From: Escherichia coli
GTDB lineage: Bacteria; Pseudomonadota; Gammaproteobacteria; Enterobacterales; Enterobacteriaceae
Length of the DNA: 64,000 nucleotides
NCBI RefSeq assembly: GCF_044324875.1
Contig: NZ_CP172185.1
Reading direction: 5' to 3' (one strand)
The notes below the pieces were generated by a model that had not been told where the DNA came from, did no database searches, and was given only the letters and a program-made list of their open reading frames with translations. The number at the start of each line of letters is the position of its first letter. The first letter of the stretch is position 1. Shown here in pieces: positions 6,484 to 45,593 of this stretch. A program made the position numbers and the translations under genes.

Positions 6484-6909
6484 ATGGCAATGCATCTTAA
6501 CGAAAACCTCGACGATAACGGCGAAATGCATGATATCAACGTGACGCCGTTTATCGACGTGATGTTGGTTTTGCTGATTATCTTTATGGTGGCGGCACCG
6601 TTAGCGACGGTAGATGTGAAGGTGAATTTGCCTGCTTCTACCAGCACGCCGCAGCCGCGCCCGGAAAAACCGGTTTATCTGTCGGTGAAAGCAGACAACT
6701 CGATGTTTATTGGTAACGATCCGGTCACCGATGAAACAATGATTACGGCGTTGAATGCGTTAACCGAAGGCAAGAAAGACACCACCATCTTCTTCCGAGC
6801 GGACAAAACCGTCGATTACGAGACGTTGATGAAGGTAATGGATACGCTGCATCAGGCGGGTTACCTGAAAATAGGTCTGGTCGGCGAAGAAACTGCGAAA
6901 GCGAAATAA
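6484..6909 (+). CDS. exbD: TonB-system protein ExbD
   Basis: 141-aa ORF MAMHLNENLDDNGEMHDINVTPFIDVMLVLLIIFM...; 6 nt after exbB stop. Confidence 0.95.
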   Translation: MAMHLNENLDDNGEMHDINVTPFIDVMLVLLIIFMVAAPLATVDVKVNLPASTSTPQPRPEKPVYLSVKADNSMFIGNDPVTDETMITALNALTEGKKDTTIFFRADKTVDYETLMKVMDTLHQAGYLKIGLVGEETAKAK

Positions 6910-6914
6910 AAATG

Positions 6915-6949
6915 ATGCCCGGTTGCTTTTCACAACCGGGCATTTTTTT
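6915..6949. terminator. bidirectional rho-independent terminator between convergent exbD and yghA
   Basis: Inverted repeat ATGCCCGGTTG / CAACCGGGCAT with 8-nt loop, followed by TTTTTTT. Confidence 0.5.
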
Positions 6950-7832
6950 AACCTAAATGCTCGCCGCCGCAGACACCGTGCACTTCTGCGGTGACGTAGC
7001 TCGACTCCTGACTTGCCAGGTAAACATATACAGGGGCCAGTTCCGCCGGTTGCCCCGCACGCTTCATCGGCGTTTTCTGACCAAACTGCGGGATCTTATC
7101 CTGCGTCTGTCCGCCGGAAATTTGCAGTGCTGTCCAGATCGGGCCAGGTGCAACAATATTCACACGAATACCTTTCTCCGCGACCTGTTTTGCCAGGCCT
7201 CGGCTGTAGTTCAGAATCGCCGCCTTCGTAGCCGCATAGTCCAGTAAATGCGGGCTTGGCTGGTATGCCTGGATTGACGAAGTGGTGATGATACTAGCAC
7301 CTTTCGGTAGCAGGGGGAGCGCTTCCTGGGTTAGCCAGAACAGCGCGAAAACGTTAATGGTAAAGGTCTTTTGAAACTGTTCGCTGGTGAGGTCTGCAAT
7401 ATCAGGAATGGCAACCTGTTTCCCGGCGACCAGCGCCATAATATCCAGCCCGCCTAACGCCTTGTGCGCTTCGTGAACCAGCGAACGGGCGAATTTCTCA
7501 TCGCTTAAATCGCCTGGCAGCAGGACGGCTTTGCGTCCGCATTCTTCAATGATCTTTTTCACATCCTGAGCGTCTTGTTCTTCTACGGGAAGATAACTAA
7601 TCGCCACGTCAGCCCCTTCACGCGCGTAAGCAATGGCGGCAGCGCGACCGATTCCGGAATCGCCCCCTGTCACCAGTGCTTTACGATCTTTCAGGCGACC
7701 GCTACCAACATAGGTTTTCTCGCCGCAATCCGGTACCGGTGTCATCTTCGCCTGGATGCCTGGCGTCGGTTGTTTCTGTTTGGGATATTCACCAGTGTAA
7801 TACTGCGTGGTCGGGTCTTTTAAATGAGACAT
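6948..7832 (-). CDS. yghA: NAD(P)-dependent short-chain dehydrogenase/reductase
   Basis: 294-aa ORF; [10 protein letters not shown] glycine-rich cofactor loop; matches YghA. Confidence 0.9.
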
Positions 7833-7953
7833 CGTTTTTCTCCCTTCAGGTTCAACGTCCTTTAAGGGTAGACGCTCTCGATGCGTTGATAAGGGAACCA
7901 GGAAGATCCCTAAACCTCGGATTTATGCGACAAAGGTTTAACGGATATGTTGA

Positions 7954-8517
<564 letters not shown>

Positions 8518-8524
8518 TCTGATT

Positions 8525-8550
8525 CGGGCGCGGTTCTCGCGCCCGTTATT
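8525..8550. terminator. hairpin terminator between convergent yqhA and gpr
   Basis: CGGGCGCG gttct CGCGCCCG perfect 8-bp GC stem followed by TTATT. Confidence 0.4.
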
Positions 8551-8556
8551 AACAGG

Positions 8557-9597
8557 TCATTTATCGGAAGACGCCTGCCACAGATTCAGCTCGCCATCGG
8601 CGATATGCTGATCAATCTGCGCCAGCTCCTCGGCACTGAATGCCAGGTTGTTTAACGCCTGCACGTTCTCTTCCAGTTGTTCCGGACGGCTGGCACCAAT
8701 CAACACCGAGGTGACGCGTTCATCTTTCAGCAACCAGCTTAACGCCATTTGCGCCATTGATTGTCCACGCTGCTGTGCCATTTCATTCAATAACCGCAGG
8801 CTGTTGAGGTTGGCTTCGGTGAGCATTTTCGGCGTCAGACCACGAACTTTATTCCCTTCACGATGCATCCGTGAATCTTGCGGAATACCGTTGAGATATT
8901 TTCCGGTCAGCAATCCCTGAGCCAGAGGAGTAAAGGCAATGCAGCCCACGCCGTTATGTTGCAGGGTATCCAGCAGGCCGCTTTTATCCACCCAGCGGTT
9001 CAGTAAATTGTACGAAGGTTGATGAATTAACAGCGGAATTTTCCACTCGCGCAGCAACTCGACCATTTTTTGCGTCCGCTCTGGCGAGTAAGAGGAGATC
9101 CCGACATAAAGCGCCTTACCGCTTTGTACCGCATGAGCCAGCGCAGAGGCGGTTTCTTCCATCGGCGTATTTTCATCGACGCGATGAGAGTAAAAGATAT
9201 CGACATACTCAAGCCCCATACGCTTCAGGCTTTGGTCGAGGCTGGCGAGCAGGTATTTACGTGAACCGCCAGAGCCGTAAGGGCCGGGCCACATATCGTA
9301 GCCAGCCTTGGTAGAGATAATCAGTTCATCGCGATAAGCGGCAAAATCCTCCCGCAGCAGGCGACCAAAGTTCTCTTCTGCGCTTCCTGGAGGCGGCCCG
9401 TAATTGTTGGCTAAATCAAAGTGCGTAATGCCTAAATCAAACGCTTTACGCAGGATCGCACGCTGTGATTCCAGCGCGTTAACGTGACCGAAATTGTGCC
9501 ATAAACCGAGCGATAACGCGGGCAGGCGTAAACCGCTTTTTCCGCAATAACGGTACTGCATCTGCCCGTAACGCTCGGGATTCGCTAACCAGACCAT
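8557..9597 (-). CDS. gpr: L-glyceraldehyde 3-phosphate reductase (aldo-keto reductase)
   Basis: 346-aa ORF MVWLANPERYGQMQYRYCGKSGLRLPALSLGLW...; matches YghZ/Gpr. Confidence 0.9.
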   Translation of the reverse strand: MVWLANPERYGQMQYRYCGKSGLRLPALSLGLWHNFGHVNALESQRAILRKAFDLGITHFDLANNYGPPPGSAEENFGRLLREDFAAYRDELIISTKAGYDMWPGPYGSGGSRKYLLASLDQSLKRMGLEYVDIFYSHRVDENTPMEETASALAHAVQSGKALYVGISSYSPERTQKMVELLREWKIPLLIHQPSYNLLNRWVDKSGLLDTLQHNGVGCIAFTPLAQGLLTGKYLNGIPQDSRMHREGNKVRGLTPKMLTEANLNSLRLLNEMAQQRGQSMAQMALSWLLKDERVTSVLIGASRPEQLEENVQALNNLAFSAEELAQIDQHIADGELNLWQASSDK

Positions 9598-9753
9598 GAC
9601 CTCTCCTTTCCACCATTCAATTTCGAAACAATGTTTCTAGTTTAGCGATTCATCAGCGCGTATCCCGTAGTCTGGCTCACAGAGTGACGAAAAACTGGGC
9701 AAAAACACGCGCTTATGCTTTGCTTAAAAAAACACCAGTTGAGGAGTGCAACG

Positions 9754-10637
9754 ATGCCGCGTTTAACCGCCAAAGATTTCCCACAAGAGTTGCTGGATTA
9801 CTACGACTATTACGCTCACGGGAAAATCTCGAAACGTGAGTTCCTCAACCTTGCGGCGAAGTATGCGGTAGGCGGGATGACGGCATTAGCGTTGTTTGAT
9901 TTGCTCAAGCCAAATTATGCGCTGGCGACTCAGGTAGAGTTTACCGACCCGGAGATTGTTGCTGAGTACATCACGTATCCTTCACCAAATGGTCACGGCG
10001 AGGTACGGGGTTATCTGGTGAAGCCCGCAAAGATGAGCGGCAAAACGCCAGCCGTGGTGGTGGTGCATGAGAATCGTGGACTGAATCCGTATATCGAAGA
10101 TGTGGCACGGCGAGTGGCGAAGGCGGGGTATATCGCCCTGGCACCTGACGGCTTAAGTTCCGTTGGAGGTTATCCGGGTAATGATGATAAAGGTCGTGAG
10201 CTGCAACAGCAGGTTGATCCAACCAAACTGATGAATGATTTCTTTGCCGCAATTGAGTTTATGCAACGCTATCCGCTAGCGACAGGCAAAGTGGGTATTA
10301 CCGGATTTTGCTATGGCGGTGGCGTATCGAACGCGGCGGCTCGTATCCGGAACTGGCCTGCGCGGTGCCGTTTTATGGTCGACAGGCACCCACCGCCGAT
10401 GTGGCGAAGATTGAAGCGCCTTTACTACTCCACTACGCGGAACTGGACACCCGAATCAACGAGGGCTGGCCTGCTTACGAGGCGGCGTTGAAAGCCAATA
10501 ATAAGGTCTATGAGGCGTATATCTATCCGGGGGTTAATCACGGATTCCATAATGATTCCACGCCCCGTTATGACAAATCTGCCGCCGATCTTGCCTGGCA
10601 AAGGACGCTGAAATGGTTCGATAAATATCTCTCCTGA
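9754..10637 (+). pseudogene. yghX: dienelactone-hydrolase-family gene disrupted by a frameshift
   Basis: Track ORF 9715..10491 encodes the N-terminal hydrolase part up to [13 protein letters not shown] and then runs into nonsense; overlapping ORF 10308..10637 in another frame encodes the continuation [14 protein letters not shown]...KWFDKYLS. Frame switch near 10339-10346. Confidence 0.8.
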
Positions 10638-10755
10638 TAGGTTTATCTCTTACGGGATTACGTCTTAAACAAGCATGAAAAAATAGCGTGCGCAAAAGTC
10701 GTTCTTTGCCTAAAATATCGCTATATATGGCAATATATAGCGAATGAGGTGAACG

Positions 10756-11043
10756 ATGAATAACCATTTTGGTAAAGGCTTAATGGCGGGATTAAAAGCA
10801 ACGCATGCCGACAGTGCGGTTAATGTGACAAAATACTGTGCCGATTATAAACGCGGTTTTGTATTAGGCTACTCACACCGGATGTACGAAAAGACCGGAG
10901 ATCGCCAGCTTAGCGCCTGGGAAGCGGGTATTCTGACGCGCCGCTATGGACTGGATAAAGAGATGGTAATGGATTTCTTTCGTGAGAATAATTCCTGTTC
11001 TACGTTGCGCTTTTTTATGGCCGGTTATCGCCTCGAAAATTGA
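10756..11043 (+). CDS. yghW: small protein of unknown function (DUF2623-type)
   Basis: 95-aa [30 protein letters not shown]...; position upstream of hybO as in K-12. Confidence 0.75.
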
Positions 11044-11231: not shown

Positions 11232-12350
11232 ATGACTGGAGATAACACCCTCATCCATTCTCACGGCATTAACCGTCGTGATTTCATGAAGCTTTGTGCA
11301 GCATTAGCCGCCACCATGGGGTTAAGTAGCAAAGCCGCTGCAGAGATGGCCGAATCGGTTACTAACCCGCAGCGTCCGCCAGTTATCTGGATTGGCGCGC
11401 AGGAGTGCACCGGTTGTACGGAATCTCTGCTTCGTGCAACGCATCCAACGGTAGAAAACCTCGTGCTGGAGACTATCTCTCTGGAATATCACGAAGTGCT
11501 TTCCGCCGCCTTCGGTCATCAGGTCGAAGAGAACAAACATAACGCTCTCGAGAAGTACAAAGGGCAGTATGTGTTAGTGGTGGATGGTTCCATCCCATTA
11601 AAAGATAATGGTATTTATTGCATGGTTGCCGGTGAGCCGATTGTGGATCACATCCGCAAAGCGGCGGAAGGCGCAGCAGCCATTATCGCTATCGGTTCCT
11701 GCTCTGCGTGGGGCGGTGTTGCCGCGGCTGGGGTTAACCCAACTGGCGCGGTCAGTCTGCAAGAAGTTCTGCCAGGCAAAACTGTAATCAACATTCCTGG
11801 CTGCCCGCCGAACCCGCACAACTTCCTCGCGACCGTTGCGCACATCATCACTTACGGCAAACCACCGAAGCTGGATGATAAAAACCGTCCGACTTTCGCC
11901 TACGGTCGTCTGATTCACGAACACTGTGAACGTCGCCCGCACTTCGATGCTGGTCGCTTTGCGAAAGAGTTCGGCGACGAAGGCCACCGTGAAGGCTGGT
12001 GCCTGTACCACCTCGGCTGTAAAGGGCCAGAAACTTACGGCAACTGCTCAACGCTGCAATTCTGCGACGTTGGCGGCGTGTGGCCGGTGGCGATTGGTCA
12101 CCCGTGCTATGGCTGTAACGAAGAAGGTATCGGCTTCCATAAAGGCATCCATCAGCTTGCCAACGTCGAAAACCAGACTCCGCGTTCACAGAAACCGGAC
12201 GTTAACGCTAAAGAAGGCGGCAACGTCTCTGCAGGCGCTATTGGTTTGCTCGGCGGTGTGGTTGGGCTGGTTGCCGGTGTCAGCGTGATGGCGGTGCGTG
12301 AACTGGGTCGTCAGCAAAAGAAAGATAACGCTGACTCACGGGGAGAATAA
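11232..12350 (+). CDS. hybO: hydrogenase 2 small subunit (Tat-exported)
   Basis: 372-aa ORF; twin-arginine signal RRDFMK near N-terminus; Cys-rich FeS cluster motifs. Confidence 0.95.
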
Positions 12351-25031: not shown

Positions 25032-26381
25032 TTGGCGGGTTTTAACATCAAACATTGGTTTGCAGATGGCGCGTTTCGCACCATTATTCGCAATAGCGCC
25101 TGGTTAGGCTCCAGTAATGTCGTGAGCGCCTTGCTGGGTCTGTTGGCGCTCTCGTGTGCCGGTAAAGGGATGACGCCCGCCATGTTTGGCGTACTGGTGA
25201 TTGTGCAATCGTACGCCAAGTCGATCAGCGATTTTATTAAGTTTCAGACATGGCAGTTGGTGGTGCAGTACGGAACACCAGCATTAACCAACAATAATCC
25301 ACAGCAATTCCGCAATGTCGTCTCATTTTCCTTCTCGCTGGATATCGTCAGCGGCGCGGTGGCGATTGTCGGCGGCATTGCCTTACTCCCTTTTCTTTCC
25401 CATTCATTAGGTCTGGATGACCAAAGCTTTTGGCTGGCAGCGCTGTATTGCACGCTCATTCCTTCAATGGCTTCCTCCACGCCGACCGGCATTCTGCGTG
25501 CGGTAGATCGCTTCGACTTAATTGCTGTACAGCAGGCGACGAAACCTTTTCTGCGCGCAGCGGGGAGCGTCGTTGCCTGGTATTTTGACTTTGGTTTTGC
25601 GGGTTTTGTTATTGCCTGGTACGCCTCGAATCTTGTTGGCGGCACCATGTACTGGTGGTTTGCCGCACGTGAATTACGCCGCAGAAATATCCATAACGCG
25701 TTCAAATTGAATCTGTTTGAGTCTGCCCGACACATCAAAGGCGCGTGGAGTTTTGTCTGGTCAACCAACATTGCCCATTCCATCTGGTCGGCGCGTAATT
25801 CGTGCAGCACAGTGTTGGTGGGGATCGTGTTAGGACCCGCTGCCGCCGGGTTATTTAAAATCGCCATGACATTCTTCGACGCCGCCGGAACGCCAGCGGG
25901 TTTACTGGGCAAAAGTTTTTACCCAGAGGTGATGCGTTTAGATCCGCGTACCACCAGACCGTGGTTGTTAGGCGTGAAGTCAGGTTTACTGGCGGGCGGA
26001 ATCGGTATTCTGGTGGCGCTCGCGGTGTTGATCGTCGGCAAGCCGCTCATTTCGCTGGTGTTTGGCGTTAAGTATCTCGAAGCGTATGACCTGATTCAGG
26101 TGATGCTGGGCGCAATTGTGATCTCGATGCTGGGCTTCCCTCAGGAGTCATTGCTATTGATGGCGGGAAAACAGCGCGCTTTTCTCGTGGCGCAAACCAT
26201 CGCCTCAATCGGCTACATCGTATTGCTGTTCATGTTCTGTCATCTGTTTGGCGTGCTGGGGGCTGCATTTGCTTACTTCGGTGGGCAATGTCTGGATGTG
26301 GTGTTCTCGCTAATTCCGACCTTAAAGGCATTTTTTCAGCGCCATTCCTTGCTTTATAACTCAGCCGGAGAGAAATCCTGA
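25032..26381 (+). CDS. yghQ: Wzx/MurJ-like (MOP superfamily) polytopic membrane protein, putative lipid-linked substrate flippase
   Basis: Track ORF is 449 aa with a TTG start; first in-frame ATG about 46 codons in (MTPAMFGVLV). Longer than the 355-aa K-12 YghQ I remember. Start uncertain. Confidence 0.75.
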   Translation: MAGFNIKHWFADGAFRTIIRNSAWLGSSNVVSALLGLLALSCAGKGMTPAMFGVLVIVQSYAKSISDFIKFQTWQLVVQYGTPALTNNNPQQFRNVVSFSFSLDIVSGAVAIVGGIALLPFLSHSLGLDDQSFWLAALYCTLIPSMASSTPTGILRAVDRFDLIAVQQATKPFLRAAGSVVAWYFDFGFAGFVIAWYASNLVGGTMYWWFAARELRRRNIHNAFKLNLFESARHIKGAWSFVWSTNIAHSIWSARNSCSTVLVGIVLGPAAAGLFKIAMTFFDAAGTPAGLLGKSFYPEVMRLDPRTTRPWLLGVKSGLLAGGIGILVALAVLIVGKPLISLVFGVKYLEAYDLIQVMLGAIVISMLGFPQESLLLMAGKQRAFLVAQTIASIGYIVLLFMFCHLFGVLGAAFAYFGGQCLDVVFSLIPTLKAFFQRHSLLYNSAGEKS

Positions 26382-27217
26382 TGATGAGAAAATATTTCCC
26401 GCTTGAGGCGAGCGAGCGTCTATTTGTTGCGATTGAAGAAGATGATGTTGTTGATGCACAGGTCAGTTTGCCGCCGACTATCGCACTAAGTTGTACCACC
26501 GAAATCATCCATGATAATTACGCGTTATGCCTGCAATTCTGGCTCAATGGCGTCAATCGCCAGGAGTTACTGCGTTTAATATGCAAACAGGCCAAAGGCG
26601 ATGAGCTGACTGCTGATGAGCGCAAACAATTTAAATACATGCGAGCGCGCTACAAGCACCTGCGTTTTGCGCAACGGCTGTATTTAAAAAAGCATCAGGC
26701 CGGATTTTTATTCGGCAAAACGACCGTTTTTTTGGGGCGTTTTCAGGACGGCTTTCGTAACGGTAAGAAAAATATTGTGTCGTATTACGGCAACCTGTTA
26801 CGGGTTTATTTAAGCTCTCCGGTCTGGTCGTTGGTGAACTATTCATTACGCCATAGCCAGTTAGAAAGCGTAAGCGGTTTTATTGCCTATCGGCAAAAGC
26901 AAATGCATACCCTGAAAGAGATAATTGCCAAACCGCGACTAACTGGCAGGGAATTTCATGATGTGCGAAAAATCATCAGCCAGCAGGTTTCTTATTACGA
27001 CACCTTAAGATCGCTTGATCCTGAAAATAAAGAGGCGTTACTGATTTCCCGTTTTCTCGCCGCCATTAATGGTCTGATGGGGGATAAGCACGACGACATG
27101 GTGGCGGATGATATGGAAAACCGCCAGTCGTATGATGCACCGGTGGCGCTGGATAGCGATATTCGCCAGCGTTTAGAACTGCTGATTTCGCGTTTCCCAC
27201 TCTATCCGGAGCAATAA
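26381..27217 (+). CDS. hypothetical soluble protein, 278 aa, basic and predicted helical
   Basis: ATG overlaps yghQ stop (ATGA) with GGAGAGAAA Shine-Dalgarno; no family recognised. Confidence 0.6.
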   Translation: MMRKYFPLEASERLFVAIEEDDVVDAQVSLPPTIALSCTTEIIHDNYALCLQFWLNGVNRQELLRLICKQAKGDELTADERKQFKYMRARYKHLRFAQRLYLKKHQAGFLFGKTTVFLGRFQDGFRNGKKNIVSYYGNLLRVYLSSPVWSLVNYSLRHSQLESVSGFIAYRQKQMHTLKEIIAKPRLTGREFHDVRKIISQQVSYYDTLRSLDPENKEALLISRFLAAINGLMGDKHDDMVADDMENRQSYDAPVALDSDIRQRLELLISRFPLYPEQ

Positions 27218-27777
27218 TGCCATCTCGTTGGATTTTCGCTCTGATCATCGCACTCTTAGCGCCAGGCGCGGTGGCACACAATTTCGTCACTGGCAAAACG
27301 GTTACCCCTGTTTATATCCAGGAAGGCGGTGAGTTGCTTCTGAAAAGCGACGACGAAATTCACTACCAAAAGTGGAACAGCACACAGCTGGCGGGAAAAG
27401 TTCGCATTATTCAGTATATCGCCGGGCGTAAGTCGGCGAAGAAAAAGAACTCACTGTTAATTAAAGCGGTTGAAGCGGCAAACTTTCCGCAGGATCGTTT
27501 TCAGCCCACCACCATTGTGAACACCGATGATGCCATTTTTGGTACTGGCTATTTTGTCGTTGGCAAAATCGAAAAAAATAAACGCCGCTATCCGTGGGCG
27601 CAATTCGTTATTGACGGCAATGGACAGGGACGCGTTGCCTGGCGGTTGCCGGAGCAGAGTTCAACCATTCTGGTGCTGAATAAAGACGGGCAAATTCAGT
27701 GGGCAAAGGACGGCAGCCTGACGCCGGAAGAGGTAGATCATGTCATTGCGCTGGCGCAGAAACTGATCAATGAATAA
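27217..27777 (+). CDS. secreted/periplasmic protein, YtfJ-like, 186 aa
   Basis: N-terminal signal peptide MPSRWIFALIIALLAPGAVA; start overlaps previous stop (TAATG); resemblance to YtfJ is from memory. Confidence 0.55.
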   Translation: MPSRWIFALIIALLAPGAVAHNFVTGKTVTPVYIQEGGELLLKSDDEIHYQKWNSTQLAGKVRIIQYIAGRKSAKKKNSLLIKAVEAANFPQDRFQPTTIVNTDDAIFGTGYFVVGKIEKNKRRYPWAQFVIDGNGQGRVAWRLPEQSSTILVLNKDGQIQWAKDGSLTPEEVDHVIALAQKLINE

Positions 27778-27807
27778 AAAATTCAAAGGATTGAGGGCGT
27801 TAGCGAG

Positions 27808-28878
27808 ATGAAGCTGGTTGAACACTACATCATGCGTGGTACGCGCCGTCTGGTGTTGATTATCGTCGGTTTTCTGATCTTTATTTTCGCCAGCTACTCC
27901 GCACAGCGTTATCTGACCGAAGCGGCAAATGGGACATTAGCTCTTGATGTTGTGCTGGATATCGTTTTCTACAAAGTGCTGATTGCACTGGAGATGTTGT
28001 TACCTGTTGGACTGTATGTGTCAGTTGGCGTGACGCTAGGGCAGATGTATACCGATTCGGAAATTACCGCTATCTCTGCGGCGGGGGGCAGTCCGGGACG
28101 CTTGTACAAAGCCGTTCTTTATCTGGCGATACCGCTAAGTATTTTTGTCACCCTTCTGTCGATGTATGGTCGTCCGTGGGCTTATGCGCAGATTTATCAA
28201 CTGGAGCAACAGTCACAGTCGGAGCTGGATGTTCGCCAGTTGCGGGCAAAGAAATTTAACACTAACGATAACGGACGAATGATCCTTTCCCAGACGGTTG
28301 ATCAGGATAATAATCGCCTGACTGACGCGCTGATTTATACTTCTACTGCCAATCGAACCCGCATTTTCCGCGCCCGTTCGGTTGATGTGGTTGACCCATC
28401 TCCCGAGAAACCGACCGTTATGTTGCACAACGGGACAGCCTATCTTCTCGATCATCAGGGGCGTGACGACAACGAACAGATCTACCGTCATCTGCAATTA
28501 CATCTGAATCCGCTGGATCAAAGCCCTAACGTCAAACGCAAAGCGAAATCGGTCACGGAGCTGGCGCGCTCCGTCTTTCCAGCCGATCATGCCGAACTGC
28601 AATGGCGACAAAGCCGTGGCCTGACAGCATTGTTGATGGCGCTGCTGGCCATTTCATTAAGTCGGGTAAAACCGCGGCAAGGGCGATTTTCAACATTATT
28701 GCCACTGACGTTGCTGTTTATTGCCATTTTTTATGGCGGCGACGTCTGCCGTACGCTGGTGGCTAACGGCGCGATTCCCCTCATTCCTGGTTTGTGGTTA
28801 GTACCCGGACTCATGCTAATGGGCCTGCTGATGCTGGTCGCACGCGACTTCTCTTTGCTGCAGAAATTTTCCCGATGA
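27808..28878 (+). CDS. YjgP/YjgQ-family permease (LptF-like paralogue)
   Basis: 356-aa ORF with N-terminal TM cluster, long periplasmic middle region and C-terminal TM helices, the LptF/LptG architecture. Confidence 0.7.
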   Translation: MKLVEHYIMRGTRRLVLIIVGFLIFIFASYSAQRYLTEAANGTLALDVVLDIVFYKVLIALEMLLPVGLYVSVGVTLGQMYTDSEITAISAAGGSPGRLYKAVLYLAIPLSIFVTLLSMYGRPWAYAQIYQLEQQSQSELDVRQLRAKKFNTNDNGRMILSQTVDQDNNRLTDALIYTSTANRTRIFRARSVDVVDPSPEKPTVMLHNGTAYLLDHQGRDDNEQIYRHLQLHLNPLDQSPNVKRKAKSVTELARSVFPADHAELQWRQSRGLTALLMALLAISLSRVKPRQGRFSTLLPLTLLFIAIFYGGDVCRTLVANGAIPLIPGLWLVPGLMLMGLLMLVARDFSLLQKFSR

Positions 28879-29954
28879 ATGTTTTCAGTCGCTATTTAAT
28901 CCGTCATCTCTTTCTCGGTTTTGCCGCCGCCGCAGGGCTATTGCTGCCGCTTTTTACCACCTTCAACCTGATTAACGAACTGGATGATGTCAGCCCGGGT
29001 GGTTATCGCTGGACTCAGGCGGTGCTGGTGGTGCTGATGACCTTACCGCGCACACTGGTCGAACTTTCGCCGTTTATCGCATTATTGGGAGGGATTGTTG
29101 GCCTGGGGCAGTTATCGAAAAACAGTGAGCTTACCGCCATTCGCAGCACGGGGTTTTCTATCTTCCGTATTGCACTAGTGGCGCTGGTTGCCGGGATATT
29201 TTGGACTGTTTCGTTAGGCGCGATAGATGAGTGGGTGGCGTCGCCATTGCAGCAACAGGCGCTGCAAATCAAATCGACTGCCACCGCGTTGGGGGAGGAC
29301 GATGACATTACCGGCAATATGCTTTGGGCCAGGCGCGGTAATGAATTTGTGACGGTGAAATCGCTGAACGAGCAGGGCCAGCCTGTGGGCGTGGAGATAT
29401 TTCATTATCGCGACGATCTCTCGCTCGAATCCTACATTTTTGCACGCAGTGCCTCCATTGAAGACGACAAAACGTGGATCCTGCATGGTGTGAATCATAA
29501 AAAATGGTTGAATGGCAAAGAAACGCTGGAAACATCAGATAATCTTGCCTGGCAATCGGCCTTCACCAGTATGAATCTTGAAGAGTTATCGATGCCGGGA
29601 AATACTTTTTCTGTCCGTCAACTTAATCATTACATCCATTATTTGCAGGAAACTGGGCAACCCAGCAGCGAATACCGCCTTGCACTGTGGGAAAAACTGG
29701 GACAACCCATCCTGACCCTGGCGATGATTTTGCTGGCTGTGCCGTTTACCTTTAGTGCCCCGCGTTCGCCTGGGATGGGTAGCCGTCTCGCTGTAGGCGT
29801 CATCGTGGGCTTACTTACCTGGATCAGCTATCAAATCATGGTCAATCTGGGATTGCTATTTGCGTTGAACGCACCTGTTACCGCGCTCGGTTTACCGGTA
29901 GCGTTTGTGCTGGTGGCGTTGAGCCTGGTGTATTGGTATGACAGACAACATTAA
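28875..29954 (+). CDS. YjgP/YjgQ-family permease (LptG-like paralogue)
   Basis: Track ORF 28794..29954 is over-extended; start MNVFSRYLIRHLFLGF overlaps the upstream stop (ATGA), giving 359 aa with LptG-like topology. Confidence 0.7.
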   Translation: MNVFSRYLIRHLFLGFAAAAGLLLPLFTTFNLINELDDVSPGGYRWTQAVLVVLMTLPRTLVELSPFIALLGGIVGLGQLSKNSELTAIRSTGFSIFRIALVALVAGIFWTVSLGAIDEWVASPLQQQALQIKSTATALGEDDDITGNMLWARRGNEFVTVKSLNEQGQPVGVEIFHYRDDLSLESYIFARSASIEDDKTWILHGVNHKKWLNGKETLETSDNLAWQSAFTSMNLEELSMPGNTFSVRQLNHYIHYLQETGQPSSEYRLALWEKLGQPILTLAMILLAVPFTFSAPRSPGMGSRLAVGVIVGLLTWISYQIMVNLGLLFALNAPVTALGLPVAFVLVALSLVYWYDRQH

Positions 29955-29988
29955 ACCCGCCGTGGCGCAACACCACAGCGGGCTCACA

Positions 29989-31161
29989 TTACTGCTTCAG
30001 AGTAGCGAACGCTTGAATGATGGCATCAATTTGCTCACGACTGTGGGCAGCGTTTACGCTACAGCGCAGCAGCGTGATGCCTGCAGGCGCGGCAGGTGGC
30101 AGGATAAGATTCACATAAACGCCCAGCGAAATAAGCTCGCGCCAGATGCGTAAACCTTCCTCTTTCGAACCGATTATTACTGGCACTACCGGGCTAATAT
30201 GTGAACTTAACTCATAACCCAGTTTTTGCAGACCGTCATACAGATGGTTGGCATTATCCATCAGCTTTTGCCGCAACTCTGGTTGTGTAGCAATGGTTCT
30301 TAACGACGAGCGCACGGTCGCAATGCAGGACGGAGAAGGAGAGGCGGTAAAAATATACGGGCGGCTGCCGTAGCGCAGCACTTCCATCGCTTCCGAACCG
30401 ACAGCAAAACCGCCAATCGAGGCCAGACTTTTACTGAAAGTACCAACGATAATATCCACATCATCTTCAACGCCAACGGCTTCAGCCAGTCCGCGCCCCG
30501 TTGCGCCTAACACGCCAAACGAATGCGCTTCATCGACAATCAAATAACCACCGAGACGACGTTTGATATCAACAATTTCCGCCAGCGGCGCAACGTCACC
30601 GAGCATACTGTAGATGCCTTCAACGATGATAATCGCCTCTTTTGCCCGTTCACCGAGGCGAACCATGCGCCGTTCCAGATCTTTAGCATCGTTATGGCGG
30701 AAACGAATAATTTCCGCGCCACCGAGAGAACAGGCGTCATAAATACTGGCGTGGCTGTCGGCATCCAGTAACACCACGGCGTTATGGTCGGCAAGTGCGC
30801 TGATGACGCCTAAATTAGCGGTATAACCGGTTGAAAAAACGATAGCGGTAGGGCGATTAAAAAACTCGGCGATCTCTTTCTCTAACGCCAGATGCGGCGC
30901 ATAACTGCCGTTTGCCATACGAGAACCGGTGGTGCCGGTGCCTTGGGCCGCTAACGCTGCCTGACCTTCGGCGATGGCATCATGATTGAAGGTTAATCCG
31001 AGATAATTATTGGTCCCGGCCAGAATCACTTTTTTATTGCCGATCCGGCCTTCGGTGGCGGAATACACTTCATCAATACAGGTACCAAACGGCGTTAACC
31101 CGTTGTCACTAAATTGCAGTCGCTCGCCAGCAAGACGCGCATATTTATCGTATAGCCCCAT
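29989..31161 (-). CDS. PLP-dependent alpha-oxoamine synthase, serine-palmitoyltransferase-like
   Basis: 390 aa; motifs DEAHSFG and VGTFSKSLASIGGF (PLP lysine about residue 244, codon near 30430..30432). Confidence 0.8.
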   Translation of the reverse strand: MGLYDKYARLAGERLQFSDNGLTPFGTCIDEVYSATEGRIGNKKVILAGTNNYLGLTFNHDAIAEGQAALAAQGTGTTGSRMANGSYAPHLALEKEIAEFFNRPTAIVFSTGYTANLGVISALADHNAVVLLDADSHASIYDACSLGGAEIIRFRHNDAKDLERRMVRLGERAKEAIIIVEGIYSMLGDVAPLAEIVDIKRRLGGYLIVDEAHSFGVLGATGRGLAEAVGVEDDVDIIVGTFSKSLASIGGFAVGSEAMEVLRYGSRPYIFTASPSPSCIATVRSSLRTIATQPELRQKLMDNANHLYDGLQKLGYELSSHISPVVPVIIGSKEEGLRIWRELISLGVYVNLILPPAAPAGITLLRCSVNAAHSREQIDAIIQAFATLKQ

Positions 31162-31409
31162 TATTTATTCTCCAGCCATGGAAGTAGTGTTTCCATTAAT
31201 TGCGCAGGGGTTTTGACATCCAGCAGAATATTAATAGGAATGGAAATATCGAATCTGTCTTCCAGCATCATTAAGAGATCCATCACTTTGATCGACTCCA
31301 GGCCAAGATCGTTGACGAGATCGCTGTCGGGCTTAATTTCCACACCGTTTTCGACCAAATCCTGTAAACAGGAAAGGATGTAATCCATTACTATTTCACG
31401 ATTTACCAT
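31161..31409 (-). CDS. acyl carrier protein (dedicated, 82 aa)
   Basis: Small acidic protein with DLGLESIKVMDL (candidate phosphopantetheine serine); stop overlaps the downstream synthase start. Confidence 0.7.
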   Translation of the reverse strand: MVNREIVMDYILSCLQDLVENGVEIKPDSDLVNDLGLESIKVMDLLMMLEDRFDISIPINILLDVKTPAQLMETLLPWLENK

Positions 31410-31440
31410 AGAAACGTTAACACACCTTTAAACAAGACAA

Positions 31441-32355
31441 TCAAAATAGCCCGTTGCGTAATGCGTGTTCCAGGCTAATCCCGGGAAACCAATTAATATC
31501 TTCAGAAATACGGTTATTACTTGCTGACCAGTCGGCGTGGGTTAATTCACGGATTTTCGAGCGGGTCAGCATAGGTTCTTTACCTGCCAGGCGACTCAAC
31601 GTGGTACTGATATCCGCAAGGCAGGTGAGTACCGACAGAGGAATACCAACCATTCGAACGGAACCACAACGGGCGTCGGCGGCAAGCTGTCTTACGCGTT
31701 GCCAGTCATAGCCGCCGGCGACGCCATCGCATAATTCATAGGTTTGCGTCTGTACAGTTTCGGCGCTTAACCACTGCCCCACGGCTTGCGCGAAATCGGT
31801 GACGTGCAGGAAAGAGAGCTGTGTATCTGGCGCACCAAGTCGTGGCAGTAGGCCGCGCAGCATCCAGTCAAACAGCGGTTTTAACTCTTTATCGCCGGGA
31901 CCATACACGGCTGTCGGGCGAAAAATGCCCAGCGTAATTTCGTCAGCCATTGCGGTCAGTCGTTGTTCGGCGACGTGTTTGGAATTTGCGTACCAGGAGA
32001 GTTCGGGATGGCGCGCCGCCAGCGAAGAGATAAACAGAAAACGTTGGCAAAAGCCGCTCTCTTTTGCCGCTTGCATCAGGCGCAGGCTGCCGTCAACGTT
32101 ACAGCGGGTAAAAATCTCTTCTTTGTGTCCGCGCACTTGTCCGGCGCAATGGACCACCGCGCTGGCTCCGGCAACCAGTTCGCTAAGCGAATGTGTATCT
32201 TCCAGCGAACCGCGCACCCAGATGAGATTATCATTGACGTGAGCGCGGGCAGTACGCGTCAATGCGCGAACGTGAAAGCCGCGGGCGAGCAGGTTATCGA
32301 TAATATATTTACCGATAAACCCGGTAGCGCCCGTCACCGCGACAGTTTGATTCAT
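31441..32355 (-). CDS. NAD(P)-dependent epimerase/dehydratase-family (extended SDR) oxidoreductase, putative keto-reductase
   Basis: 304 aa; Rossmann VTGATGFIGKYI, catalytic YANSK; start overlaps upstream ligase stop by 4 nt. Confidence 0.75.
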   Translation of the reverse strand: MNQTVAVTGATGFIGKYIIDNLLARGFHVRALTRTARAHVNDNLIWVRGSLEDTHSLSELVAGASAVVHCAGQVRGHKEEIFTRCNVDGSLRLMQAAKESGFCQRFLFISSLAARHPELSWYANSKHVAEQRLTAMADEITLGIFRPTAVYGPGDKELKPLFDWMLRGLLPRLGAPDTQLSFLHVTDFAQAVGQWLSAETVQTQTYELCDGVAGGYDWQRVRQLAADARCGSVRMVGIPLSVLTCLADISTTLSRLAGKEPMLTRSKIRELTHADWSASNNRISEDINWFPGISLEHALRNGLF

Positions 32356-34073
32356 GCCAGGGATTCCTGCACATGAAGGCTTGCAGCATAAGCCTTCTGA
32401 TAGCGTTTTTTCGCTTCCGCACGGGCAGGCTTGCCGGAGGACGTTCGGGGAATACTGTGGGGCGGCAACAGATCGATAGCCGCGGTCACGCCAAATTCGC
32501 TTTGGATCCGTGCTGCCAGCGCGTGGATAAGCTGCCCGCGACGTTCTTCATCGCTGATCCGACACTGGATCTGCAAAATGATTTTTTCCTGGGCGGTAAC
32601 AAAAGCAATCGCATCGCCAGAATGAATTTCCGGTTCCTGTTCCGCAATATATTCAATATCTTGCGGCCAGATATTGCGGCCACGAATAATAATCAGATCT
32701 TTAATGCGTCCGGTGACATACAGATAACCGTCCAGCAGATAACCGAGGTCGCCGGTGTCTAACCAGCCCGTCGCGGCAATCTCGTCTTGTGAAATCTGGT
32801 CGCCAAAGTAACCGCTCATCAGGCTAGGGCCGGAGATGCAAATATGGCCTACCACACGTTCCGCGACAGGTATACCTGCTTCATTGCGGATTTCAATGCC
32901 ATGTTCCGGCAACGCTTTACCGCAGTTGACGAAAGTCGATACGGCGCGTGTTTCAGCATCCGGCGCGACGGCTTTGCCCTGATATTCGAGGATGTCGCGA
33001 TCCACTTCGTTAACCACAACCCCGGAAGCTTCATCAGAGAAGCTGACAGCCAGCGCATTTTCTGCCAGTCCGTAGCACGGCATGAACGTTTTATCGTCAA
33101 AGTTAACCTGACGAAAACATTCAGCGAATTGATGGAGTTGTTCTGCGGAGATCGGTTCTGCGCCAATACCAGCGACGCGCCAGCAGGAAAGATCCAGTTC
33201 AGCGAGATCTTTTTCATTCACGCGGCGCTGGCACAATTCATAGCCAAACGGCGGCGCAACGGAAACGGTGCCGCGATTTTTACTGATCAATTTAAGCCAT
33301 TGCAGAGGACGCATGGCAAAATCCTGAGTGCGCAAATAATCTACTGAGAGCTGCGTGGCGACGGGGGTCAGGAGAAAGCCGACCAGTCCCATATCATGGT
33401 AGAAAGGCAGCCAGGAGACGCAGCGGTCGCCAGGGCGTAATTTAATGCCATCGTGGCTTATAGCACGTAGATTAGCCATCACTTCGCGATGGGTGATAAT
33501 GACGCCACGGGGAAAACGGGTGCTGCCGGAGGTGTACTGGAGGTAGGCGATATCGTTCGGAACTGGACGCTGGAGTGCAACATCGGCTTCCGGTAATGCC
33601 TTAAACCAGGCGTGGCTTAAAACATGTAATTCGGGTTTGTTATGCGTCGCGGCATTGACCAGCGGTAACCACTCATCACCAGTGATAATGGCTGCGGGCT
33701 GGCAACTTGCCAGTAAACCCTGCAGTTTGGCGCTCCAGGAATCCCGCTGACCGACGCCCATTGGAATCGCCAACGGGACGGCGACTAAGCCGGCATACTG
33801 GCAGGAAAAAAAAGCCTCTACGAACCCGCTACTGGTTTCGGCAATCAGCGCCACGCGATCGCCTTTTTTCAGGTTCAGCGATAACAACCGCTTCGCACCA
33901 GCTTCGGCACGCGCTTTTAACGTCTGATATTCCAGTTGATCTTCAAGTTGGCAACGTCTGTCATAAAAATTCATTCCGGCGCTACTCAGAGCGGCGTAGT
34001 CCAAAGCATCAACCAGCGTTGGAAAATCGGCATAGCGCATAGGTAGGGAATGCGTAAAGATTTTATTAGACAT
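32352..34073 (-). CDS. fatty acyl-AMP ligase / acyl-ACP synthetase-type adenylating enzyme
   Basis: Track ORF 32352..34100 (582 aa); AMP-binding motif YTSGSTRFPRGV. Start uncertain (candidates at 34100, 34073, 34040); 34073 ATG chosen. Confidence 0.75.
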   Translation of the reverse strand: MSNKIFTHSLPMRYADFPTLVDALDYAALSSAGMNFYDRRCQLEDQLEYQTLKARAEAGAKRLLSLNLKKGDRVALIAETSSGFVEAFFSCQYAGLVAVPLAIPMGVGQRDSWSAKLQGLLASCQPAAIITGDEWLPLVNAATHNKPELHVLSHAWFKALPEADVALQRPVPNDIAYLQYTSGSTRFPRGVIITHREVMANLRAISHDGIKLRPGDRCVSWLPFYHDMGLVGFLLTPVATQLSVDYLRTQDFAMRPLQWLKLISKNRGTVSVAPPFGYELCQRRVNEKDLAELDLSCWRVAGIGAEPISAEQLHQFAECFRQVNFDDKTFMPCYGLAENALAVSFSDEASGVVVNEVDRDILEYQGKAVAPDAETRAVSTFVNCGKALPEHGIEIRNEAGIPVAERVVGHICISGPSLMSGYFGDQISQDEIAATGWLDTGDLGYLLDGYLYVTGRIKDLIIIRGRNIWPQDIEYIAEQEPEIHSGDAIAFVTAQEKIILQIQCRISDEERRGQLIHALAARIQSEFGVTAAIDLLPPHSIPRTSSGKPARAEAKKRYQKAYAASLHVQESLA

Positions 34074-34444
34074 ATACACCACGAAAAAATTGGATATCAA
34101 AAATAAAATGACAATAATGCGGTGGATTATATAGGCATAAAAGATAAATGAGATAGTATTTTCATCAGTGTGAAAATGAACATTGATTTAAATAATGAGT
34201 TTGAGTTTTTTTGTTTTTATTGTGAATGATATTTAATTTATGAATGTATTAAGAAGAAGCCTTGTCCGGTCGCCTTAAATCGACAAAAGGCATTGTGGCG
34301 CTTCTGTGTAGTCTCTGACCTTATCGTAATCATTAATAAATACTATTTATTCGTCGTTTGTATTCATTGGGTTGATTATTAAGGTGCCGTTCGTTGCTGT
34401 TGCAACCTGTTTGTCACCGTTAATTATTTGTTACCCACAGAACT
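34074..34444. promoter_or_regulatory. AT-rich divergent control region between the ligase operon and yghO
   Basis: About 370 bp non-coding and strongly AT-rich, between divergently oriented starts. Confidence 0.45.
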
Positions 34445-45108: not shown

Positions 45109-45117
45109 GTCAATAAT

Positions 45118-45144
45118 GCCGGATGATCGTTAATATCATCCGGC
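45118..45144. terminator. hairpin after glcA (end of glc operon)
   Basis: GCCGGATGAT cgttaat ATCATCCGGC, perfect 10-bp stem. Confidence 0.45.
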
Positions 45145-45593
45145 TACATTTACATTATTCTGTCTTATTAATTGAAAATTATTTCCCTCTTTATTATCCA
45201 TGCAGCAATAATGTTTTGCGTTCAGATAACCTGCTAAATAATTAAGAACGTGAGAATATCTATTTTTTTTATCACGCAAAACAAGTTTGTACTAATTATG
45301 TTCGCTTGATGAGCAAACACCGTGCTATCTGTTGCTTTTGCAATCGCAATCGTTAAAACTATCAACAACTTGGGATAGTTACATTGTGAATAATTGTTAC
45401 TTTTTTGTTTGTTGAATCTTTTTATAAATACCCCGTCTGACATCGAATAGGGGATATTCTTATAAATTTCACCTGTTTCGTTATCAATAATGCAGTTTTT
45501 TAAGAATGGAGGAAGTTATTAGAGAAGATAAAGCATAAAACTATTTCTCCCAGTTACGAATTTTTTAACATTGTTTTGTCACTTGCGTTATTA

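What the first reader, a model, noticed from the sequence alone, without database searches (positions are those of the whole stretch)
10335..10346. yghX frameshift site
The dienelactone-hydrolase reading frame switches by +1/-2 between the codons for ...SNAAA and YPELACAV..., splitting the gene between ORFs 9715..10491 and 10308..10637. The same gene is a pseudogene in K-12 as I recall; seeing it here suggests an old, shared inactivation or a sequencing error.
Basis: seen in the sequence. Interest (0 to 1): 0.3.

Follow-up and report, generated by a model that had tools for sequence, protein, structure and literature searches.

The report
Private 4-bp deletion inactivating yghX
A real 4-base deletion has broken the yghX hydrolase gene in this E. 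coli lineage; it is an ordinary, recent pseudogene, it arose separately from the K-12 yghX pseudogene, and it is not a sequencing error.

Summary
yghX (window 9754-10637, + strand) is split at 10341/10342 into the two reported ORFs.

- **Cause.** The window lacks 4 bp (GTCG, gene nt 589-592) that intact alleles have. Putting them back gives one 295-aa ORF identical to a common intact YghX protein.
- **Effect.** Reading continues out of frame after Ala196 and stops at TGA 10489-10491. The predicted nucleophile Cys186 is kept, but Asp233 and His264 of the predicted dienelactone-hydrolase triad are lost. I infer loss of function.
- **K-12.** Its lesions are different: ΔTA at nt 109-110 (1,248 of 5,426 complete genomes) and ΔC at nt 470 (1,198 of 5,426). 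K-12 is intact at the window's site, so the inactivation is not shared.
- **Not an error.** No complete RefSeq E. coli genome has ΔGTCG (0 of 5,417). The exact 245-aa truncated product is on record on 123 public contigs, and three independent assemblies carry the identical junction. yghX is also the only one of 43 neighbouring genes with a frame-disrupting change.
- **Age.** About 4.5 kb around the site is otherwise 100% identical to an intact relative, so the deletion is recent.

Other lineages carry further independent lesions (E201*, R211*).

This is ordinary and of low interest.

The parts
9754..10637 (+). yghX pseudogene (884 nt; intact alleles are 888 nt / 295 aa)
   Evidence: Alignment A1 with the intact NY1601 and IAI1 alleles. 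Re-inserting GTCG gives a 295-aa ORF identical to P0001. The repaired protein scores 586.7 bits against NCBIfam NF041440, cut-off 460.
9754..9927 (+). Codons 1-58: N-terminal extension with a Pfam YqhI-like match, an SKREFLN motif, a hydrophobic stretch and ALA|TQ; putative export signal (inferred)
   Evidence: Pfam PF23678 matches residues 1-36. Solved structure 4zv9 covers only residues 59-294. The motif reading is my own and was not tested.
9754..10341 (+). In-frame N-terminal part, codons 1-196, ending ...GVSNAAA
   Evidence: Matches NF041440 profile positions 1-194 of 292 only.
10309..10311 (+). TGC, Cys186: predicted catalytic nucleophile (GFCYGG), retained upstream of the lesion
   Evidence: Aligns with residue 123 of ClcD dienelactone hydrolase (4u2c, same numbering as 1din). 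Codon read from the sequence.
10341..10342 (+). Deletion junction: 4 bp (GTCG, gene nt 589-592) missing between these two bases; placement is unique
   Evidence: Alignment A1 and the lesion script. The junction is identical in L005, L006 and L007.
10342..10491 (+). Out-of-frame tail: 49 aberrant codons (RIRNWPARC...TRRR) and premature stop TGA at 10489-10491
   Evidence: The product equals P0002 (245 aa), which is present in public collections.
10344..10637 (+). C-terminal part of yghX (codons 199-295 plus TGA), now in the -1/+2 frame and not joined to the N-terminal part
   Evidence: Pfam DLH profile positions 119-217 and alignment A1. No Shine-Dalgarno-like sequence lies before the candidate restart codons at 10308, 10365 or 10401.
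10446..10448 (+). GAC, Asp233: predicted triad aspartate, downstream of the frameshift
   Evidence: Aligns with ClcD Asp171. Codon read from the sequence.
10539..10541 (+). CAC, His264: predicted triad histidine, downstream of the frameshift
   Evidence: Aligns with ClcD His202. Codon read from the sequence.

Best explanation
yghX in this genome is a recent, lineage-private pseudogene made by a genuine 4-bp deletion (GTCG, gene nt 589-592, between window 10341 and 10342). Shown: translation from ATG 9754 reads 196 native residues, then 49 out-of-frame residues, and stops at TGA 10489-10491. Inferred: the 245-aa product keeps the putative export signal and the predicted nucleophile Cys186 but lacks the C-terminal third of the alpha/beta-hydrolase fold, including the predicted triad residues Asp233 and His264, so it should be inactive. 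The 3' part (10344-10637) has no evident ribosome-binding site and is probably not translated. The lesion arose on a haplotype otherwise identical to an intact allele (strain NY1601). It is carried by a clone that has no complete RefSeq genome but appears in many draft and Logan assemblies. It is unrelated to the K-12 yghX lesions.
For: Alignment A1: the window differs from the intact NY1601 allele only by the 4-bp gap, and K-12 and STEC409 have other lesions. Repair gives a 295-aa ORF identical to P0001, which is seen on 943 contigs. The junction 64-mer is found in 0 of 5,417 complete genomes; every hit is at most 94.1% identical, which is the gap alone. The exact truncated protein P0002 is on 123 contigs. 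L005 is 100% identical to the window over 6,738 nt, L007 is 100% identical and L006 has 1 mismatch over 4,468 nt, and all three carry the junction. yghX is the only one of 43 genes with a frame-disrupting change, and exbD through yghW is 100% identical to NY1601 apart from the deletion. The triad is mapped by alignment to ClcD. The truncated product falls below the NCBIfam cut-off, 383.6 against 460 bits. Intact alleles look constrained, with pN/pS of 0.03-0.10.
Against: No expression or enzyme data exist, so loss of function is inferred from sequence. YghX has no known substrate, and its triad is assigned by alignment only. How many independent isolates lie behind the 123 contigs is unknown, and some may be repeat sequencing of one strain. 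The carrier lineage could not be named.
Confidence: 0.93

Rival explanations
1. Sequencing or assembly error: the genome really has an intact yghX and the 4-bp gap is an artefact.
For: No complete RefSeq E. coli genome has the deletion. Some public assemblies do show artefactual yghX lesions: N-run scaffold gaps in L010 and L015, and homopolymer indels in assemblies whose neighbouring genes are also split.
Against: The identical junction occurs in three other assemblies from different projects and pipelines, two NCBI and one Logan. The exact product is on 123 contigs. The site is not a homopolymer or repeat. The window shows no other frame-disrupting change in the other 42 genes compared.
Confidence: 0.02
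2. Old inactivation shared with K-12: one ancestral pseudogenisation inherited by both lineages.
For: yghX is a pseudogene in K-12 and in at least 23% of complete genomes.
Against: K-12 carries ΔTA at nt 109-110 and ΔC at nt 470 and has GTCG intact. The window is intact at both K-12 sites. ΔGTCG is absent from all 1,248 ΔTA genomes and from every other complete genome. There are zero substitutions relative to an intact allele, which means no post-inactivation decay.
Confidence: 0.01
3. Functional split or recoded gene: a programmed -1 ribosomal frameshift, or separate translation of the two halves that then reassemble, still gives active enzyme.
For: The two ORFs overlap by 184 nt (10308-10491), so a -1 slip there could in principle join them. 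Both halves keep their DLH-family sequence signal.
Against: There is no X XXY YYZ slippery heptamer in the overlap, and no Shine-Dalgarno-like motif before any candidate restart codon. All other alleles examined at this site encode one continuous frame, so the frameshift is not conserved. The lesion removes or alters Val197 and Ala198, 11-12 residues after the predicted nucleophile Cys186.
Confidence: 0.02
4. Adaptive gene loss: yghX inactivation is favoured in certain niches, which would explain the recurrent independent lesions.
For: At least four independent lesions were found: ΔTA at 109, ΔGTCG at 589, E201* and R211*. The underlying alleles nevertheless show strong constraint, pN/pS 0.03-0.10. 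ΔTA has reached 23% of complete genomes.
Against: The same pattern is expected from neutral loss of a conditionally dispensable gene combined with clonal expansion and sampling bias, since K-12-like laboratory strains are heavily over-represented. There is no phenotype and no association test. This rival concerns why the lesion persists, not what it is.
Confidence: 0.1

Closest known systems
E. coli K-12 yghX pseudogene (RefSeq 'YghX family hydrolase, frameshifted'; used as a neutral integration locus in W3110 engineering, PMC7677707)
   Same: Same gene, same locus (gpr - yghX - yghW - hybO), and same outcome: a frameshifted, presumably non-functional hydrolase gene.
   Different: Different mutations at different positions. 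K-12 has ΔTA at nt 109-110 (stop at codon 48) plus ΔC at nt 470; the window has ΔGTCG at nt 589-592 (stop after codon 245). The K-12 type is in 1,248 and 1,198 of 5,426 complete genomes; the window type is in none.
Intact YghX family hydrolase (NCBIfam NF041440; e.g. WP_001305985.1 of strain NY1601; structure PDB 4zv9, deposited as 'uncharacterized protein')
   Same: The nucleotide sequence is identical to the NY1601 allele apart from the 4 bp. The repaired protein is identical to P0001 and very close to 4zv9 over residues 59-294 (E 6.5e-160).
   Different: As encoded here the protein ends after 196 native residues and scores below the family cut-off, 383.6 against 460 bits.
Dienelactone hydrolase ClcD of Pseudomonas (PDB 1din and 4u2c; Cys123-Asp171-His202 triad, from established knowledge of the family)
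   Same: Same Pfam family (PF01738). The residues that align with the triad are Cys186, Asp233 and His264.
   Different: A distant relative (E about 1e-14). YghX has an extra 58-residue N-terminal region and no known substrate. In the window the triad is split by the frameshift.
Other lineage-private yghX null alleles (E201* GAA>TAA; R211* CGA>TGA)
   Same: Independent, rare inactivations of the same gene within 15 codons of the window's lesion.
   Different: They are point nonsense mutations on other haplotypes. E201* is in 2 of 5,426 complete genomes and R211* in none.

Membership tests
YghX family hydrolase (NCBIfam NF041440) | Whole-protein score at or above the curated cut-off of 460 bits | tested here: met
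   The repaired 295-aa protein scores 586.7 bits over profile positions 1-292, so the locus is yghX.
YghX family hydrolase (NCBIfam NF041440) | The product as actually encoded reaches the cut-off, i.e. is a full-length member | tested here: not met
   The 245-aa product scores 383.6 bits, below 460, and matches profile positions 1-194 only.
Dienelactone hydrolase family (Pfam PF01738) | Match to the DLH profile above the gathering score | tested here: met
   The N-terminal half scores 75.9 bits (profile 1-114) and the C-terminal half 75.5 bits (profile 119-217), against a cut-off of 21.
Dienelactone hydrolase family (Pfam PF01738) | Cys/Ser-Asp-His catalytic triad on one polypeptide | tested here: not met
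   Cys186 lies upstream of the frameshift, and Asp233 and His264 lie downstream in another frame.
Frameshifted pseudogene | Orthologues elsewhere encode a single uninterrupted ORF | tested here: met
   NY1601 and IAI1 have 888-nt CDSs annotated as intact. P0001 is seen on 943 contigs.
Frameshifted pseudogene | An indel whose length is not a multiple of 3, leading to a premature stop | tested here: met
   A 4-bp deletion at nt 589-592 with the first stop at codon 246.
Frameshifted pseudogene | The lesion is real, i.e. reproduced in independent sequence data | tested here: met
   Identical junction in L005, L006 and L007; product on 123 contigs.
Frameshifted pseudogene | Loss of protein function | not testable with these tools
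   Inferred from the loss of Asp233 and His264 and of about one third of the fold.
K-12-type yghX pseudogene allele | ΔTA at gene nt 109-110 | tested here: not met
   The window has TA at this site.
K-12-type yghX pseudogene allele | ΔC at gene nt 470 | tested here: not met
   The window has AACCAAA, which is intact.
Programmed -1 ribosomal frameshift | Slippery heptamer X XXY YYZ in the ORF overlap | tested here: not met
   None found between 10308 and 10491 in the upstream frame.
Programmed -1 ribosomal frameshift | The frameshift is conserved among homologues | tested here: not met
   None of 5,417 complete genomes has it, and the intact comparison alleles (NY1601, IAI1) encode a single frame.

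The most novel reading that the evidence does not exclude
yghX is repeatedly and independently knocked out in E. coli lineages (ΔTA, ΔGTCG, E201*, R211*) even though its intact alleles are under strong purifying selection (pN/pS 0.03-0.10). That would fit niche-specific adaptive loss of a probably exported dienelactone-hydrolase-like enzyme of unknown substrate, with ΔGTCG marking one such clone.
Probability: 0.1. Interest if true: 0.3.

Novelty: already known. Interest (0 to 1): 0.08.

Why it matters
It matters little biologically: this is one more lineage-private pseudogene in a gene of unknown function that is already known to be dispensable in K-12. There are three practical uses.

- Annotators should mark 9754-10637 as one frameshifted pseudogene and not as two hypothetical ORFs.
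- The junction GGCGGCT|CGTATCC is a clean clonal marker for a lineage that has no complete RefSeq genome.
- The case shows that being a pseudogene in K-12 as well does not imply shared ancestry. yghX has been lost at least four separate times.

Tried and rejected
- **Shared K-12 lesion.** Rejected by direct alignment.
- **Sequencing error.** Rejected by independent assemblies and a clean neighbourhood.
- **Programmed frameshift or split gene.** No slippery heptamer, no Shine-Dalgarno-like motif, and the frameshift is not conserved.
- **Phase-variable repeat.** The deleted GTCG is not part of a tandem repeat or homopolymer, and its placement is unique.
- **Apparent 28- and 40-bp insertions in L015 and L010.** These are runs of N, i.e. 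scaffold gaps, and were discarded.
- **1-bp indels in L009, L016, L017 and L020.** Left unresolved. L009 and L020 also have split neighbouring genes, which suggests assembly noise.
- **Naming the carrier lineage.** This failed. No complete genome is closer than 99.4% over 5 kb or 98.9% over 25 kb, and a literature search for the assembly and run accessions found nothing.
- **Shigella-like genome decay.** I considered this because most carrier contigs are 20-50 kb. The window has no IS1 and only one broken gene among the 43 compared across about 45 kb. The only named source calls the protein E. coli.
- **Scans not run.** I did not scan genome contigs or metagenome contigs; the expected yield did not justify the cost.

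Full report
**1. The observation**

The + strand carries ORF 9715..10491 (258 aa) and ORF 10308..10637 (109 aa). The first matches positions 1-114 of the 217-position Pfam DLH profile (PF01738). The second matches positions 119-217. They are therefore two halves of one dienelactone-hydrolase-family gene.

The neighbours are gpr/yghZ (8557-9597, - strand), yghW (10756-11043) and hybO (11232-12350). That is the yghX locus as RefSeq annotates it in other strains. The frame changes between Ala196 (GCT, 10339-10341) and Tyr199 (TAT, 10344-10346), inside the reported 10335-10346.

Two small corrections apply:
- The real start is most likely ATG 9754. RefSeq CDSs of intact alleles and the NCBIfam YghX profile both begin there.
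- The downstream frame is -1/+2 relative to the upstream frame, not +1/-2. Upstream codons start at positions 1 mod 3 and downstream codons at 0 mod 3.

**2. What the lesion is**

I aligned the gene with two intact alleles (NY1601, IAI1) and two frameshifted ones (the K-12 derivative MFDpir, and STEC409) (alignment A1).
- The window lacks exactly 4 bp, GTCG (gene nt 589-592), between window 10341 and 10342. The placement is unique, and the context GGCGGCT[GTCG]CGTATCC is neither a homopolymer nor a tandem repeat.
- Apart from this gap the window's gene is identical to the NY1601 allele (0 substitutions).
- Re-inserting GTCG gives a single 888-nt ORF. Its 295-aa product is identical to P0001, a YghX protein seen on 943 public contigs. 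It scores 586.7 bits against NCBIfam NF041440, "YghX family hydrolase", whose cut-off is 460.

**3. Consequence**

As encoded, translation from 9754 gives 196 native residues, then 49 aberrant residues (RIRNWPARC...TRRR), then TGA at 10489-10491. The product is 245 aa.

I mapped the catalytic triad by alignment to Pseudomonas ClcD (4u2c, same numbering as 1din). That its triad is Cys123-Asp171-His202 is established knowledge of the family. The YghX equivalents are:

| Residue | Codon | Window position |
|---|---|---|
| Cys186 | TGC | 10309-10311 |
| Asp233 | GAC | 10446-10448 |
| His264 | CAC | 10539-10541 |

(codons read). The frameshift falls 10 codons after the nucleophile and removes Asp233 and His264 from the frame. 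The truncated product matches only profile positions 1-194 of 292 and falls below the family cut-off, 383.6 bits. Loss of function is inferred and not shown.

No X XXY YYZ slippery heptamer lies in the 184-nt ORF overlap. No Shine-Dalgarno-like sequence precedes the candidate restart codons at 10308, 10365 or 10401. I therefore consider recoding, or reassembly of a split enzyme, unlikely.

**4. Not shared with K-12**

RefSeq flags yghX as "frameshifted" in the K-12 derivative MFDpir, and MG1655 records carry the same junction. [quoted passage not shown]

The K-12 lesions are different, however. They are ΔTA at nt 109-110, which gives a stop at codon 48, and ΔC at nt 470. K-12 has GTCG intact, and the window is intact at both K-12 sites.

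I counted carriers with 36-nt junction queries, which cannot seed on alleles that lack the lesion:

| Lesion | Complete RefSeq E. coli genomes |
|---|---|
| ΔTA at nt 109-110 | 1,248 of 5,426 |
| ΔC at nt 470 | 1,198 of 5,426 |
| ΔGTCG at nt 589-592 (window) | 0 of 5,417 |

For ΔGTCG I used a 64-nt junction query. Every hit was at most 94.1% identical, which is 64 of 68 aligned columns, i.e. the gap alone.

**5. Not a sequencing error**

- The exact 245-aa product, including the out-of-frame tail that only this lesion can produce, is in the public collection as P0002 (SRA98949.1, "hydrolase [Escherichia coli]") and is on record on 123 contigs.
- Three carriers were fetched: L005 (GCA_958308375.1), L006 (GCA_900482385.1) and L007 (Logan assembly of SRR31141048). 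All have the identical junction.
- L005 is 100% identical to the window over 6,738 nt. L007 is 100% identical and L006 has 1 mismatch over 4,468 nt.
- The L005 contig is 63,296 nt, shorter than the 64,000-nt window, so the window comes from a further assembly.
- I compared 43 annotated NY1601 genes with window 277-45108. yghX is the only one with a frame-disrupting change; one other gene has an in-frame 3-bp indel. The window's assembly is therefore clean.

**6. Age and lineage**

From exbD to yghW (window 6484-11043) every gene is 100% identical to NY1601 except for the 4 bp in yghX. With 0-1 differences among carriers as well, this points to a very recent mutation in one clone.

That clone has no complete RefSeq genome. 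The best identity to any of 5,426 genomes is 99.4% over 5 kb and 98.4-98.9% over 25 kb. I could not name it, and a literature search for the accessions found nothing.

**7. Wider picture of yghX**

The loci fetched through the C-terminal fragments P0003 and P0004 revealed more lesions.
- E201* (GAA>TAA) is in L008, L011-L014 and L018, and in 2 of 5,426 complete genomes.
- R211* (CGA>TGA) is in L019 and in none of 5,426.
- Several 1-bp indels were seen; two of those assemblies (L009, L020) also have split neighbouring genes, so they may be noise. Two "insertions" are runs of N and are artefacts.

yghX has thus been inactivated at least four separate times. Pairwise pN/pS among five allele backgrounds, including the repaired K-12 allele, is 0.03-0.10. 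The gene is therefore constrained when intact, and the knockouts are young.

This pattern fits recurrent neutral loss of a conditionally dispensable gene. Adaptive loss is not excluded, and I put it at about 0.1.

**8. Verdict**

This is an ordinary, real, recent, lineage-private frameshift pseudogene in a gene of unknown function. Novelty: already known. Interest: low.

Noticed in passing
L006:4468-5240 and the end of L007; equivalent to window 11221/11222: In other carriers of ΔGTCG an IS1 element (left end GGTGATGCTGCCAACTTACTGAT) sits 10 bp upstream of the hybO start codon (window 11232). In L006 the sequence beyond IS1 is unrelated to the window (a peptidase M20 gene), so the hyb hydrogenase-2 operon is displaced or deleted there. 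L007's contig, and six similar ones, end at this point. The window has no IS1 here.
   Followed up: partly
L002:1655-2539 (K-12 derivative MFDpir yghX): K-12's two deletions (2 bp at nt 109-110 and 1 bp at nt 470) sum to 3, so the frame is restored after nt 470. The stretch between them contains many stops. ΔTA is in 1,248 genomes and ΔC in 1,198, and STEC409 has ΔTA only. This suggests ΔTA came first and ΔC arose later within that clade.
   Followed up: partly
window 9754-9927: The first 58 residues of YghX look like an export signal preceded by an extension: a Pfam YqhI-like match (residues 1-36), SKREFLN (resembling a KR-variant twin-arginine motif), a hydrophobic stretch and ALA|TQ. The solved structure 4zv9 starts at about residue 59. 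Localisation was not tested.
   Followed up: no
window 277-45108 against L021 (NY1601): Identity to the nearest complete genome is strongly mosaic. It is 100% for exbD through yghW, hybD through hybG, and spt plus the acyl carrier protein gene. It falls to 95.1% for yghT, 96.5% for metC and 96.9% for a hypothetical gene. This looks like a recombination patchwork.
   Followed up: no
window 25032-34100: A cluster annotated in NY1601 as an LPS biosynthesis protein, LptF and LptG, serine palmitoyltransferase, acyl carrier protein, an epimerase and a fatty acyl-AMP ligase. Only 4,042 of 5,426 genomes cover at least 80% of the 20000-44999 query that contains it, so the region is variable. The fatty acyl-AMP ligase has an in-frame 3-bp indel relative to NY1601.
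   Followed up: no
L021:45169-46517; window about 45109-45575: NY1601 has an IS3-family IS1397 between glcA and sslE that the window lacks. By my coordinate arithmetic the L005 contig ends in this same intergenic region.
   Followed up: no
L009, L012-L014, L020: Several public assemblies, some with megabase-scale contigs, show hybO (and in L008 gpr) split into fragments next to yghX. This suggests uncorrected long-read indel errors, so yghX lesions seen only in such assemblies should not be trusted.
   Followed up: partly
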